Positions 1 through 20,388 of a stretch of 32,000 nt of DNA are shown here, in pieces. This DNA comes from an uncultured archaeon (lineage in GTDB: Archaea > Iainarchaeota > Iainarchaeia > Iainarchaeales > CSSED10-239): NCBI GenBank assembly GCA_964468895.1, contig CAYXWT010000003.1, positions 5,157 through 37,156 of the forward strand, given 5' to 3'. The notes below the pieces were generated by a model. The model had not been told where the DNA came from, made no database searches, and saw only the letters and a program-made list of their open reading frames with translations. How positions within the stretch are numbered: position 1 is the stretch's first letter; each line of letters opens with the position of its first letter. The translations under genes and the position numbers were made by a program.

Positions 1-339
1 GATAAGTCTGACAGTTTTATATTTTGGATAATAGGTGGGTTCCAAATTTTATTTAATTTGAGTTTTTTAATAATTTTTTTTGAATCATTTTTTGTAAAAT
101 TTGGAGGTTTTATTAATATCATCTTTTTTTTAATATCTTTTATTTTTGGGCTTTTAATTTTTCCAACAACTAGTAACTTTATAGGAAATTTATTACATAT
201 AGCTATAAGCAAAAAGTTAAAAATAATATTAATCATTTTACCAATTTTAATACTTATTTTACATACTGTTATTTTACACTTTAGTTTACATCAAGCATCT
301 AAACAGACAGTAGAAGTAATGGGTTTATTAATACATTAA
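1..339 (+). CDS. C-terminal part of a polytopic membrane protein (5' end outside window), function unknown
   Basis: Frame 1 is open from base 1 (DKSDSFIFWIIGGFQILFN...) into the listed ORF 58..339, whose listed start is only TTG. The translation is mostly hydrophobic helices (IIFFLISFIFGLLIF, IILIILPILILILHTVIL). Confidence 0.4.
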   Translation, partial: DKSDSFIFWIIGGFQILFNLSFLIIFFESFFVKFGGFINIIFFLISFIFGLLIFPTTSNFIGNLLHIAISKKLKIILIILPILILILHTVILHFSLHQASKQTVEVMGLLIH

Positions 340-18976: not shown

Positions 18977-19279
18977 TTATTAATTTGCAATTATCTGTTA
19001 ATATCTGATTTTTTTTAAAATTTATAATTTGATAACCTCTAGTTTATTCTATATACTTTTTAGATGCTTTTTTTATAAAAAAAAGTATCTACCACTAGAA
19101 ATTTTTTTTTAAATTTTTACAATCTAGATTTAGTAAAAATTTAAATCTTTTGCTTGTTTTTTTAGTATATGTATTTCTATTTTCTAAATCTTCAAATATC
19201 GTATAAATTCCAGCTTTGTGGTAAGTTTTAAAGATAATACTATTACAGTTTAAAAACATTTTTAATATATATTATATTT

Positions 19280-20083
19280 ATGTTTCCAAAAAAAGTTAAT
19301 TTTATGATTACAGGAAAGTGTAATAATAATTGTAAATATTGCTATGCTGAACATAATGGTGAAGATTTAGATTTCGATAGATTAAAAAAAGCATTTCTAA
19401 TTCTTAAATATAATGGTGTATCTAAGATTACTATTTGTGGAGGAGAACCTACATCTAGATCTGACTTTAACAAAATCATTAACTTTCTGATTAAAAACAA
19501 ATTTAAAATCTTTCTAGATACAAATGGTGATTTTTTTAATAAATATAAATCTATAATTACAAAAAATGTATCTGTAATAGGGCTACCTATAGATTTTATA
19601 AATAAAAGTTATAGAGGAAAAAATAATTTAAAAAATATTAGATCTATTTTAGAACATTACAAAAATATCAATAAAAACCCAAAAATTAAGATTGGTACTG
19701 TTGTCACAAAAGAAAACTATAAACATTTAAATCAAATTGGAGATTTAATTAAAGATTATAAAGTAGATAAATGGAAAATTTATCAATTTACTGCAACTGG
19801 TGGTAATGCTAAAAAAAATAAAAAGTTATTAAATATTACTTTAAAACAATTTTATAATTCTATAAAAGACTTAAAATCAAGATATTCATCATATTTTAAT
19901 ATAGAAATATCTTCTAAAAAAGAAAGAAGTGGGTCATATTTTTTAATAAAACCAGATGGCACAATATTCACACCAATTATGGATGAAAATATTCAAAAAG
20001 AAATAATTGTTGGAAATATTTTTGAAAAAGATATAGTAGGTAAATGGAATTTACATACAAAAAACATTAATTTGATTAATTAA
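19280..20083 (+). CDS. radical SAM enzyme, viperin-like layout (candidate prokaryotic viperin)
   Basis: CX3CX2C cluster motif ITGKCNNNCKYCYA, SAM-binding ITICGGEP, LDTNG, IKIGTVV, then DKWKIYQF and SGSYFLIKPDG. No SPASM or extra Cys cluster. Order and spacing parallel the viperin motifs NYHFTRQCNYKCGFCF, NFSGGEP, FKINSV, RWKVFQC and DSYLILD, recalled from memory. Confidence 0.8.
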   Translation: MFPKKVNFMITGKCNNNCKYCYAEHNGEDLDFDRLKKAFLILKYNGVSKITICGGEPTSRSDFNKIINFLIKNKFKIFLDTNGDFFNKYKSIITKNVSVIGLPIDFINKSYRGKNNLKNIRSILEHYKNINKNPKIKIGTVVTKENYKHLNQIGDLIKDYKVDKWKIYQFTATGGNAKKNKKLLNITLKQFYNSIKDLKSRYSSYFNIEISSKKERSGSYFLIKPDGTIFTPIMDENIQKEIIVGNIFEKDIVGKWNLHTKNINLIN

Positions 20084-20164
20084 TAATCCTATGAAAACAC
20101 CCAATATAAATCTTTTGATTTTTTTATAATCTTAATTAAAAAACAAATATTTATAAAACCGTAT

Positions 20165-20250
20165 AAAAAAAGGGTTTACATATAACCCCTAAAGGCTAAG
20201 CTTCTAGTAGAAGTTGAATCTGCGATCTTAACCTTACCAAGGTTGAAGAT
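20165..20250 (-). ncRNA. candidate structured small RNA or 3'-UTR element: three GC-containing hairpins ending in a T7 run on the minus strand
   Basis: Plus-strand coordinates: GGGTT-N7-AACCC (20172-20188), CTTCTA-g-TAGAAG (20201-20213), and ATCTTAACCTT-acc-AAGGTTgAAGAT (20225-20250). The A7 run at 20165-20171 reads as T7 after the last hairpin on the minus strand. This is the most GC-rich patch of the intergenic region. Confidence 0.3.
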
Positions 20251-20388
20251 AAAAAGTAGATTAAATATAATTGTTAATTTATTTTAAAATCTTATTCTTG
20301 AAACTGGATTTTATACTAGATTTATTATTATCCTAACAAATAATTTTGTAAGATATTAATATTTGTGCTTAATAGATATTATTGTTTT

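What the first reader, a model, noticed from the sequence alone, without database searches (positions are those of the whole stretch)
19280..20083. Stand-alone viperin-like radical SAM enzyme (candidate antiviral pVip) in a reduced archaeal genome
Seen in sequence: a 267-aa radical SAM protein with CNNNCKYC, GGEP, and no auxiliary-cluster or SPASM extension. From memory of the human viperin sequence, the motif series lines up in order and spacing: VNFMITGKCNNNCKYCYA with VNYHFTRQCNYKCGFCFH, KITICGGEP with KINFSGGEP, IKIGTVV with FKINSVI, DKWKIYQF with VRWKVFQC, and GSYFLIKPDG with DSYLILDEY. The Lys/Arg and Tyr positions that contact the nucleotide triphosphate in viperin appear retained: K in IKIG, K-W-K, and Y in SYF. 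The gene is monocistronic and sits between long AT-rich intergenic regions, convergent with an M50-TatD operon. If it is a true pVip, it would make chain-terminating ddh-nucleotides, an innate-immunity function unexpected in a genome this compact. The C-terminal tail is shorter than in viperin, so substrate specificity is uncertain.
Basis: partly seen in the sequence, partly recalled or inferred. Interest (0 to 1): 0.7.

Follow-up and report, generated by a model that had tools for sequence, protein, structure and literature searches.

The report
Viperin-like radical SAM, not a viperin
The gene encodes an intact radical SAM enzyme whose closest studied relatives are the antiviral viperins, but it fails every specific test for being one and instead belongs to a large, unstudied sister family whose members are often fused to immune-type and nucleotide-processing domains.

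Summary
ORF 19280-20083 (+) encodes 267 aa with CNNNCKYC and GGEP, only four cysteines and no SPASM domain. It stands alone between spacers of about 300 nt and is convergent with M50-TatD.

Viperin/pVip is the best profile match (NCBIfam 5e-31, PADLOC 4e-33; hhalign probability 99.9%). But the protein is not a viperin:
- It scores 108 bits against a curated cut-off of 180. Controls score 243 and 307.
- It lies outside the viperin clade, which has 98% bootstrap support.
- It has replaced residues invariant in 12 genuine viperins (H79, N122, S180, S183, N222, E293, N295).
- It lacks viperin's C-terminal nucleobase loop and R-G-G element.

It belongs to an uncharacterised family of at least 595 clusters at 50% identity. 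The close members come from CPR bacteria and DPANN archaea. Five close clusters are fused to an HD phosphohydrolase. Wider relatives are fused to caspase, TIR, PRTase-CE and WD40 domains.

The window gene is under purifying selection (dN/dS 0.25-0.32). No kinase or defence island is nearby.

Most likely it is a nucleotide-modifying radical SAM effector of an undescribed viperin-sister family. The product is unknown, and ddhNTP synthesis is unproven.

The parts
19280..20083 (+). Coding sequence of the 267-aa radical SAM protein (P0001), stop codon included
   Evidence: The AlphaFold2 model has pLDDT 91 and pTM 0.90. dN/dS is 0.25-0.32 against relatives.
19319..19342 (+). C14-N-N-N-C18-K-Y-C21, the CxxxCxxC ligands of the radical SAM [4Fe-4S] cluster
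   Evidence: Invariant in all 30 family members and in all viperins and MoaA.
19439..19450 (+). G54-G55-E56-P57, the GGEP S-adenosylmethionine-binding motif
   Evidence: G54, E56 and P57 are invariant in the family and G55 is in 29 of 30; GGE is invariant in viperins, with P in 10 of 12.
19586..19615 (+). P103-I-D105-F...Y111-R112. It aligns with viperin S180-C-D182-S183...G193-R194. D and R are kept; S180 becomes P, S183 becomes F and G193 becomes Y.
   Evidence: P103, D105 and R112 are invariant in the family.
19685..19705 (+). I136-K137-I-G139-T-V-V. It aligns with viperin F-K220-I-N222-S-V-I. The lysine is kept; the invariant viperin Asn222 is replaced by Gly (28 of 30 in the family).
19766..19789 (+). 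D163-K164-W165-K166-I-Y-Q-F, the beta-6 motif shared with viperin R245-W246-K247-V-F-Q. W and K166 are family-wide; K164 is lineage-specific.
19934..19942 (+). S219-Y220-F221. It aligns with viperin S301-Y302-L303. The tyrosine is kept in 28 of 30 family members.
19961..20077 (+). C-terminal beta-hairpin (residues 228-246) plus helices (252-266). It has a twitch/SPASM-like shape and the motif PDGxxFxP...GNIF..DI..KW but no cysteine ligands. It does not align with viperin's C-terminal extension, and it is about 12 aa shorter than in most of the family.
19215..19279 (+). About 65 nt upstream of the start codon that is conserved with the 89%-identical relative's locus (L041). This is the presumed promoter and 5' region that travels with the gene.
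18977..19279 (.). Upstream AT-rich spacer between the Cdc48 stop codon and the start of the radical SAM gene
20084..20388 (.). Downstream spacer shared with the convergent M50 gene. It contains a structured island of 34% GC.

Best explanation
The gene encodes a functional, stand-alone radical SAM enzyme. It belongs to a large uncharacterised family that is the nearest relative of the viperins but is distinct from them. The close members occur in CPR bacteria and DPANN archaea.

Shown:
- The ORF is intact and under purifying selection.
- It has the CxxxCxxC cluster site and the SAM-binding motifs.
- It gives a confident model of a partial-barrel fold, closed by a cysteine-free hairpin-helix C-terminal element.
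- It lies outside the viperin clade.
- The family is patchily distributed across two domains of life, and there is no conserved partner gene.

Inferred:
- Like its two characterised neighbours, viperin and MoaA, which both act on nucleoside triphosphates, the enzyme binds a phosphorylated nucleotide in a basic pocket. In the window protein that pocket would be formed by R112, K137 and K166, with Y220 alongside.
- It reductively cleaves SAM to a 5'-deoxyadenosyl radical and abstracts a hydrogen from the substrate.
- The residues around the viperin ribose and base site are systematically different, and the nucleobase-reading C-terminal loop is absent. The substrate and/or product therefore need not be a ddh-NTP.
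- Close relatives are fused to an HD phosphohydrolase. Remoter relatives are fused to caspase, TIR, PRTase-CE and WD40 modules. The most likely biological role is therefore production of a modified nucleotide in a conflict (antiviral) setting, here as a minimal one-gene effector.
For: Closest to viperin:
- NF038283 scores 5.1e-31, against 2.2e-19 for the next family.
- PADLOC pVip scores 3.7e-33.
- The PDB profile search puts viperins first, at 73-55 bits, against 51 for Tes and 48 for MoaA.
- hhalign gives 99.9% probability, E 1.6e-31.

Distinct from viperin:
- 107.9 bits against a cut-off of 180. Positive controls score 243 and 307, and a proximal group scores 139-170.
- Left-out viperins score 187-327, the window 87-98 and MoaA 58-66.
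- In the tree, the viperin clade has 98/100 bootstrap support and the window sits in a separate 167-member clade.
- The site table shows the replaced residues.

Family size: 595 clusters at E <= 1e-30.

Fusions:
- An HD domain is fused in P0087 and P0051, and is homologous in P0078, P0082 and P0112, with the full H..HD..H..HD..D motif set.
- Among 41 multi-domain representatives: caspase in 4, TIR in 3, PRTase-CE in 2, WD40 in 1.
- A nucleoside 2-deoxyribosyltransferase-like gene lies 44 nt upstream of the archaeal member P0068.

Functional gene: dN/dS is 0.25-0.32 and all invariant residues are intact. The model has pLDDT 91.

Accessory nature: family members lie in unrelated contexts in different genomes, and CPR and DPANN homologues are about 50% identical.
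Against: - There is no biochemical evidence of any kind.
- The window's neighbours are all housekeeping genes.
- Across 14 family loci, only a few of 101 neighbour proteins hit defence models, and no nucleotide kinase is linked.
- The caspase, TIR and PRTase-CE fusions are in relatives only about 25% identical to the window's subfamily, so their role may not transfer.
- The HD fusion shows a link to a phosphoester, not specifically to a nucleotide.
- Fold comparison ranks the peptide maturase SkfB (TMq 0.77) on a par with viperins at 0.70-0.74.
- The neighbour-joining tree is crude at this depth. Only the exclusion from the viperin clade is robust.
Confidence: 0.55

Rival explanations
1. It is a genuine, merely divergent prokaryotic viperin (pVip). 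It would convert CTP, UTP or GTP to chain-terminating 3'-deoxy-3',4'-didehydro-NTP and protect the archaeon against viruses.
For: - Viperin is the best profile hit by about 12 orders of magnitude.
- PADLOC's pVip models match over about 90% of both the profile and the protein.
- R194, K220, N229, W246, K247 and Y302 are retained, and the window also has N7, K49 and K164 at viperin N77, K120 and R245.
- Rooted on MoaA, the family branches on the viperin side.
- Relatives carry immune-type fusions.
Against: - It scores 72 bits below the curated cut-off and far below left-out genuine viperins.
- It lies outside the 98% viperin clade.
- H79, N122, S180, S183, N222, E293 and N295 are replaced.
- The C-terminal beta-8 loop, with the Asn/Cys314 and Lys319 positions that read the base according to Shomar et al., and the R347-G-G element have no counterpart.
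- There is no kinase partner.
- K49, K164 and N7 are lineage-specific in a protein that is 28% Lys plus Asn.
Confidence: 0.2
2. It is a housekeeping or metabolic radical SAM enzyme of nucleotide, cofactor or RNA-modification metabolism. It would have been acquired by genome-reduced CPR and DPANN organisms for salvage, with no role in defence.
For: - In the window and most family loci the neighbours are housekeeping genes: Cdc48, TatD, DRG, aminoacyl-tRNA synthetases, eRF1 and TruB.
- The context is the same in every place shown for the window's population, across independent assemblies.
- The PF15891 and HD links would also fit nucleoside or nucleotide salvage.
- One member sits in a glycan-synthesis cluster.
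Against: - The distribution is very patchy: 77 clusters found by the word-indexed search of 5.8 billion proteins.
- There is no conserved operon partner.
- Context changes completely between relatives, and there is a decaying copy at 89% identity.
- No curated housekeeping family comes near its cut-off.
- Wider relatives are fused to caspase, TIR and PRTase-CE domains.
Confidence: 0.13
3. It is a peptide-modifying (RiPP-type) maturase that derives from twitch/SPASM enzymes and has lost the auxiliary cluster.
For: - The top Foldseek hit is the RiPP maturase SkfB (TMq 0.77), and SuiB also scores 0.70.
- The C-terminal hairpin-helix carries the SPASM-like motif PDGxVFxP...GNI...I..W.
- Many SPASM families appear among the weaker NCBIfam hits.
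Against: - There are only four cysteines and no SPASM or twitch ligands, and no PF13186 hit.
- No conserved small ORF lies next to the gene. The one candidate, upstream of P0002, is a Cdc48 gene fragment.
- Sequence profiles favour viperin and MoaA over every peptide maturase.
- HD and nucleotide-type fusions do not fit peptide chemistry.
Confidence: 0.06
4. It is an inactive relic on its way to loss in a reduced genome.
For: - The 89%-identical relative P0002 has a codon deleted inside the cluster motif (CNNC), GDEP in place of GGEP, and YPF in place of YQF. It sits in a rearranged locus.
- The window's subclade has lost the family's C-terminal tail of about 12 aa.
Against: - The window copy keeps all 13 family-invariant residues.
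- dN/dS is 0.25 against the 65%-identical relative.
- The identical protein recurs in nine contigs from independent samples.
- The structure model is confident.
Confidence: 0.03

Closest known systems
Viperin / prokaryotic viperins (pVip; NCBIfam NF038283, PADLOC PDLC02903/02904; structures 5VSL, 6Q2P, 7N7H, 7N7I, 9DFN)
   Same: - It is a single-domain radical SAM enzyme of about 270-300 aa with no auxiliary cluster.
- It has the same order of motifs: CxxxCxxC, GGEP, xKIxTVV, xWKxxQ, SY.
- It shares R194, K220, N229, W246, K247 and Y302.
- Viperin is the best profile, profile-profile and PDB sequence match.
- The gene is stand-alone and horizontally mobile.
   Different: - It scores below the curated cut-off, 108 against 180 bits.
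- It lies outside the viperin clade.
- H79, N122, S180, S183, N222, E293 and N295 are replaced.
- There is no counterpart of the beta-8 nucleobase loop or the C-terminal R-G-G element.
- No nucleotide kinase is linked.
- The product is unknown.
Viperin-proximal sub-threshold group (P0214, P0217, P0185, P0219, P0209, P0215; unnamed)
   Same: - It is also an uncharacterised viperin-like radical SAM group that falls below the NCBIfam cut-off.
- It is found by the same family profile, at 168-175 bits.
   Different: - This group scores 149-170 bits on NF038283 over the full profile length, including the C-terminus.
- It keeps N222 and is sister to the viperins in the tree.
- The window's clade is one step further out.
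MoaA, GTP 3',8-cyclase (TIGR02666/TIGR02668; structure 1TV7)
   Same: - It has a related radical SAM core and acts on a nucleoside triphosphate.
- It is the customary outgroup for viperin trees.
- It gives weak profile matches of 54-58 bits.
   Different: - MoaA has a C-terminal second [4Fe-4S] cluster, whereas the window protein has only four cysteines.
- The window's scores are far below the MoaA cut-offs of 284-325 bits.
- MoaA lacks the xWKxYQ motif and the Tyr302 equivalent.
- The fold match is poorer, TMq 0.56-0.67.
Twitch/SPASM radical SAM peptide maturases (SkfB 6EFN, SuiB 5V1Q)
   Same: - The overall fold matches, including a C-terminal beta-hairpin followed by a helix (TMq 0.77 to SkfB).
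- It has the PDGxVxP...GN...W sequence pattern typical of the first half of SPASM domains (my own knowledge, seen).
   Different: - It has no cysteine ligands for an auxiliary cluster.
- There is no RiPP recognition element and no precursor peptide gene.
- Sequence profiles rank these families well below viperin.

Membership tests
Viperin / pVip | Radical SAM core: CxxxCxxC cluster site and GGEP SAM-binding motif | tested here: met
   C14, C18 and C21, and G54-P57 are present. This is shared with all radical SAM relatives, so it does not discriminate.
Viperin / pVip | Score at or above the curated equivalog cut-off of NCBIfam NF038283 (180 bits) | tested here: not met
   The window scores 107.9 bits, matching profile positions 2-250 of 281. 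PGAP-annotated pVips score 243.4 and 307.3. All 30 family members match below the cut-off, and the window is the best of them by E-value.
Viperin / pVip | Placement inside the viperin clade in a tree rooted on MoaA (the criterion used by Shomar et al. and by Culbertson & Levin) | tested here: not met
   The neighbour-joining tree has 249 sequences and 100 bootstraps. Viperins are monophyletic in 98 and MoaA in 100. The window sits in a separate 167-member clade. It does branch on the viperin side of MoaA.
Viperin / pVip | Residues invariant in genuine viperins around the substrate site: N77, H79, N122, S180, S183, N222, E293, N295 (mouse numbering) | tested here: not met
   The window has N, M, T, P, F, G, then K or S, then E or K (the last two sites depend on the alignment). 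The family consensus is T/D, R, V, P, F, G, then R or S, then D or R. Only N77 matches, and only in the window's small subclade.
Viperin / pVip | Shared basic and aromatic residues R194, K220, W246, K247, Y302, plus N229 | tested here: met
   These correspond to R112, K137, W165, K166, Y220 and N146. They are conserved in 27-30 of 30 family members.
Viperin / pVip | C-terminal extension with the beta-8 nucleobase loop (Asn/Cys314 and Lys319 positions) and the conserved R347(-G-G) element | tested here: not met
   hhalign aligns family columns 4-239 with viperin columns 3-243 of 299, and the remaining viperin columns are unmatched. R347 is invariant in all the viperins aligned and has no counterpart in the trimmed tree alignment. 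The first alignment paired it doubtfully with K255. The role of the loop is taken from Shomar et al..
Viperin / pVip | Genomic association with a nucleotide kinase or a defence island (frequent, not obligatory) | tested here: not met
   The window's neighbours are housekeeping genes. Among 101 neighbour proteins from 14 family loci there is no kinase and only a few defence hits. By contrast, 2 of the 8 reference pVips have an adjacent deoxynucleoside kinase.
Viperin / pVip | Matches a defence-finder pVip model | tested here: inconclusive
   PADLOC PDLC02903 scores 3.7e-33 (113 bits) over profile positions 2-234 of 257. The library as provided carries no curated cut-off, so automatic pipelines may well label this gene pVip.
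Viperin / pVip | Produces 3'-deoxy-3',4'-didehydro-NTP and protects against viruses | not testable with these tools
   This requires anaerobic enzymology with LC-MS and infection assays.
MoaA (GTP 3',8-cyclase) | Second, C-terminal [4Fe-4S] cluster, and a score above the TIGR02666/TIGR02668 cut-offs | tested here: not met
   The protein has only four cysteines and none is C-terminal. It scores 54-58 bits against cut-offs of 284-325.
SPASM/twitch radical SAM maturases | Cysteine-ligated auxiliary Fe-S cluster(s) in the C-terminal domain, and an adjacent precursor peptide | tested here: not met
   There is no PF13186 hit and no cysteines after residue 53. The only small upstream ORF in a relative is a Cdc48 fragment. 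The fold similarity to SkfB is real, at TMq 0.77.

The most novel reading that the evidence does not exclude
The gene represents an undescribed sister family of viperins: at least 595 clusters at 50% identity, with stand-alone forms in CPR bacteria and DPANN archaea and forms fused to HD, TIR, caspase or PRTase-CE domains elsewhere. This family would use viperin-like radical chemistry on a different nucleotide substrate, or make a different product from ddh-NTP. It would then be a second family of radical-SAM antiviral nucleotide synthases, here as a one-gene immune effector in an ultra-small archaeon.
Probability: 0.3. Interest if true: 0.75.

Novelty: new variant of a known kind. Interest (0 to 1): 0.55.

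Why it matters
Viperins are one of the few immune enzymes shared by bacteria, archaea and humans, and their products are natural chain-terminating antivirals.

If this sister family also makes modified nucleotides but with a rebuilt substrate pocket, it would widen the chemistry of natural antiviral nucleotides. It would also supply new enzymes for making nucleotide analogues. And it would show that genome-reduced DPANN and CPR organisms, which carry few known defences, have a compact one-gene system.

There is a practical warning too. Permissive defence-finder models (PADLOC E = 4e-33) are likely to count such genes as viperins, while the curated NCBI model rejects them. Surveys of 'viperin' prevalence may therefore mix two families.

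Tried and rejected
1. RiPP precursor idea. A 50-aa ORF lies directly upstream of the 89%-identical relative. It turned out to be a fragment of a Cdc48 AAA ATPase, and the window has no counterpart.
2. tRNA or integration-site idea. ARAGORN finds no tRNA anywhere in the window, and Rfam finds nothing between 18500 and 21000.
3. Viral origin. tblastn against 50,697 phage genomes finds nothing. IMG/VR contigs hold only generic radical SAM relatives at <=27% identity over long stretches. The BFVD fold search is uninformative.
4. Conserved partner gene or defence island. A pooled scan of 101 neighbour proteins from 14 loci shows no recurrent partner.
5. HD partner in trans. tblastn finds no homologue of the fused HD domain in the window.
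6. Published residue-level description of the viperin CTP site. Four full-text searches, one more on the C-terminal P-loop and a look inside PMC13592299 found nothing. Three look-ups by PMC id (PMC8672371, PMC7610908, PMC8191541) also failed because the papers are not held. I therefore used the invariant columns of 12 verified viperins as the tested criterion.
7. K164 is not conserved in the family, whose consensus there is I/L/V, and the protein is 15.7% Lys. I discounted it.
8. Remoter genome hits L019-L031 as possible pVip references. All scored below the NF038283 cut-off. Reference pVips were taken instead from PGAP-annotated plasmids.
Full report
**Observation**

- It carries C14-N-N-N-C18-K-Y-C21 and G54-G-E-P57.
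- It has only four cysteines (C14, C18, C21, C53).
- Pfam hits only Radical_SAM (1.3e-16) and Fer4_12, with no SPASM domain.
- Spacers of 303 and 305 nt at 14-23% GC flank it.
- It is convergent with the M50 protease and TatD genes on the minus strand.

The window is about 22% GC. The surrounding genes are an NFACT-R protein, an AAA_14 ATPase, Cdc48, M50, TatD, a small methyltransferase, a DRG-type GTPase with a TGS domain, and two TadC/FlaJ-like proteins. I read the Cdc48, NFACT-R and DRG/TGS genes as archaeal markers. All of these are housekeeping genes and none belongs to a defence system.

The identical protein occurs on nine contigs from independent ENA, JGI and Logan assemblies. Its context is the same in every place shown.

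**Is viperin the closest family?**

Yes.
- NCBIfam's best model is NF038283, 'viperin family antiviral radical SAM protein' (5.1e-31). The next are a tungsten-cofactor maturase model at 2.2e-19 and MoaA at 5.5e-16.
- PADLOC's two pVip models give 3.7e-33 and 2.3e-32 over about 90% of both the profile and the protein.
- Against PDB sequences the top hits are fungal, cnidarian and mouse viperins. With a profile of 30 family members (A1), viperins again rank first at 2e-19 to 5e-14. Tes follows at 1.4e-12 and MoaA at 1e-11.
- hhalign of the family profile against 11 verified viperins gives 99.9% probability, E 1.6e-31.
- I verified my own recollection of the human viperin sequence against the mouse crystal chains: 633 bits, near-identical.

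**Is it a viperin?**

No, by every specific test I could run.

1. Curated score. The NF038283 score is 107.9 bits against a curated equivalog cut-off of 180. Two PGAP-annotated pVips used as positive controls score 243 and 307.

2. My own viperin profile. I assembled reference viperins: mouse, Nematostella and Trichoderma from the PDB alignments, and eight plasmid-borne pVips annotated by PGAP. Scores on a viperin profile built without the tested sequence were as follows:

| Sequence | Bits |
|---|---|
| Genuine viperins, left out of the profile | 187-327 |
| P0217, a viperin-proximal protein | 144-161 |
| Window protein | 87-98 |
| E. coli MoaA | 58-66 |

The window therefore lies closer to MoaA than to the least typical viperin.

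3. Phylogeny. I built a bootstrapped neighbour-joining tree of 249 sequences: 12 viperins, 5 MoaAs, the family and its representatives. Viperins are monophyletic in 98 of 100 replicates and MoaA in 100 of 100. The window protein sits in a separate 167-member clade. A small unnamed group (P0214, P0217 and others) is the sister of the viperins. The deeper order of branches is not reliable with this method. The exclusion from the viperin clade is.

4. Active-site residues (mouse numbering).
- Kept in the family: R194 (30/30), K220 (K or R), N229 (30/30), W246 (30/30), K247 (27/30), Y302 (28/30).
- Invariant in 12 of 12 viperins but replaced: H79 (family R, window M9), S180 (P in 30/30), S183 (F/Y), G193 (Y), N222 (G in 28/30), and E293. 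N122, invariant in 11 of 12, becomes V or T. N295, also 11 of 12, is replaced too.
- For E293 and N295 the replacing residue depends on which alignment is used.

5. C-terminus. hhalign stops at family column 239 and viperin column 243 of 299. The last 55 or so viperin columns have no counterpart. They include the beta-8 loop and the invariant R347(-G-G) element. According to Shomar et al., the Asn/Cys314 and Lys319 positions of that loop set nucleobase selectivity.

**The three viperin-like residues**

The window protein looks more viperin-like than its family at three sites: N7, K49 and K164, which align with viperin N77, K120 and R245. This explains why it has the best viperin E-value of the 30 family members. 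These states are confined to the window and its 89%-identical relative. The wider clade has T/D, A/T/S and I/L/V there. The protein is 15.7% Lys and 12% Asn.

**What is it, then?**

The word-indexed search found 77 homologues of about 280 aa. None is named viperin. The named ones come from Patescibacteria, Berkelbacteria, Parcubacteria and unclassified archaea. Species-representative genomes place close members (40-53% identity) in Patescibacteria, Saccharibacteria, Berkelbacteria, Woesearchaeota and Nanoarchaeota.

The exhaustive profile search shows that this is only part of the family. There are 595 representative clusters (50% identity) at E <= 1e-30 and 21,488 at E <= 1e-10. Genuine viperins score only 49-122 bits on the same profile.

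The AlphaFold2 model is confident (pLDDT 91, pTM 0.90). It shows the radical SAM partial barrel followed by a beta-hairpin and helices. Foldseek ranks SkfB (TMq 0.77), viperins (0.70-0.74) and SuiB (0.70) about equally, and MoaA lower at 0.56-0.67. The C-terminal element has the shape and the PDGxVFxP...GNIF..DI..KW pattern of a twitch/SPASM hairpin but no cysteine ligands. The window's subclade also lacks the family's last 12 or so residues, NYxxNxxxTFxYKF.

**Clues to function**

I found no biochemical data for this family, so the evidence is contextual.

1. HD fusions. Five representative clusters of the close family (P0078, P0082, P0087, P0051, P0112) carry a homologous C-terminal HD phosphohydrolase domain.
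- It has the full H..LHDxG..HM..HD.W..NDLD motif set.
- Pairwise identity is 29-46%, with E values of 1e-33 to 1e-56.
- Pfam HD scores reach 30 bits.
- This ties the radical SAM domain to a phosphorylated substrate or product.

2. Fusions in wider relatives. Among 41 multi-domain representatives of the wider family, the partners are:
- caspase (4)
- TIR (3)
- PRTase-CE with a receiver domain (2)
- WD40 (1)
- wHTH/AsnC ligand-binding modules (3-4)

This is the typical vocabulary of prokaryotic conflict systems.

3. A nucleoside-related neighbour. In one abundant archaeal member (P0068) the gene follows, 44 nt downstream, a nucleoside 2-deoxyribosyltransferase-like gene, which itself follows an HTH gene.

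4. Both characterised neighbours of the family, viperin and MoaA, act on nucleoside triphosphates (established knowledge). The family keeps a basic pocket.

Against a defence role:
- The window's neighbours are housekeeping genes.
- The pooled scan of 101 neighbour proteins from 14 loci finds no recurrent partner and no kinase. Defence hits are few: one type II methyltransferase, one RT/DRT and a few PDC candidates.
- Known defences are sparse in DPANN generally (PMC11291487), so this negative result is weak.

**Mobility and selection**

- Family members sit in unrelated neighbourhoods in different genomes.
- CPR and DPANN copies are about 50% identical.
- The 89%-identical relative (P0002, locus L041) shares only about 65 nt of upstream DNA with the window.
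- Upstream of that conserved stretch in L041 lies a remnant of a Cdc48 gene. This suggests that the Cdc48-radical SAM adjacency is ancestral and was disrupted there by a deletion.
- Further on in L041 are HicAB, RhuM and an AAA_14/DUF4143 ATPase.
- P0002 itself has CNNC for CNNNC, GDEP for GGEP and YPF for YQF, so it is probably decaying.
- The window copy keeps all 13 family-invariant residues. Its dN/dS is 0.25 against the 65%-identical relative and 0.32 against P0002. It is therefore probably functional.

**Verdict**

'True pVip' is not supported.

The best-supported reading is a functional, horizontally mobile, stand-alone member of a large uncharacterised sister family of viperins. Most likely it performs radical chemistry on a nucleotide, and the family has ties to conflict systems. 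The product is unknown, and ddh-NTP synthesis is possible but unproven. I give this reading 0.55. The rivals are:

| Reading | Confidence |
|---|---|
| Canonical pVip | 0.20 |
| Housekeeping nucleotide or cofactor metabolism | 0.13 |
| Peptide maturase | 0.06 |
| Relic | 0.03 |

I file it as a new variant of a known kind.

Noticed in passing
window 20150-20260: The spacer between the radical SAM gene and the convergent M50 gene holds an island of about 100 nt at 34% GC, against 15-17% in the flanks. Its + strand folds into three hairpins (MFE -24 kcal/mol against -16.5 +/- 3.0 for shuffles, z = -2.5). There is no Rfam or tRNA hit. A terminator-like hairpin lies on the minus strand at 20190-20170. 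It may be a 3'-end structure or a small RNA.
   Followed up: partly
L041:1176-2155 (relative P0002, 89% identical): This copy has a codon deleted inside the cluster motif (CNNC), GDEP in place of GGEP, and YPF in place of YQF. Directly upstream is a 50-aa ORF that is a fragment of the Walker-A region of a Cdc48 ATPase. This implies a deletion of roughly 1.7 kb that removed most of Cdc48. HicAB, RhuM and an AAA_14/DUF4143 gene lie nearby. The locus looks rearranged and decaying.
   Followed up: partly
window 1-32000: ARAGORN finds no tRNA gene in the whole 32-kb window.
   Followed up: no
window 20042-20083, and alignment A1 columns 300-334: The window protein and its two closest relatives end about 12 residues before the rest of the family. 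They lack the conserved tail NYxxNxxxTFxYKF. The DNA after the stop codon does not encode it.
   Followed up: partly
L001 / L010 (protein P0019): The contig labelled 'Candidatus Woesearchaeota archaeon' that carries this family member also encodes two sigma-70 factors, alongside an archaeal-type GatD. The bin label or the contig assignment may be wrong.
   Followed up: no
L022:4260-6917; P0095, P0157, P0104: Large multi-domain relatives combine the radical SAM domain with an N-terminal caspase-like or TIR domain and with C-terminal paired wHTH/AsnC-like modules, or with receiver plus PRTase-CE, or with WD40 repeats. I found no description of these architectures and they deserve their own study.
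   Followed up: partly
window 19095-19259 (minus strand): A 54-aa ORF antisense to the upstream spacer is called as a gene in three of the four assemblies shown (L129-L131). It has no Pfam hit, lies in 14-18% GC DNA and is probably spurious.
   Followed up: no
PDB entries 9DFN / 9DFU (seen): A second Trichoderma virens viperin-like enzyme naturally has Phe at the His79 position (NYFF). It was crystallised together with an F40H variant. This suggests that the histidine, which the window's family lacks, matters for viperin chemistry. I could not find the paper.
   Followed up: partly
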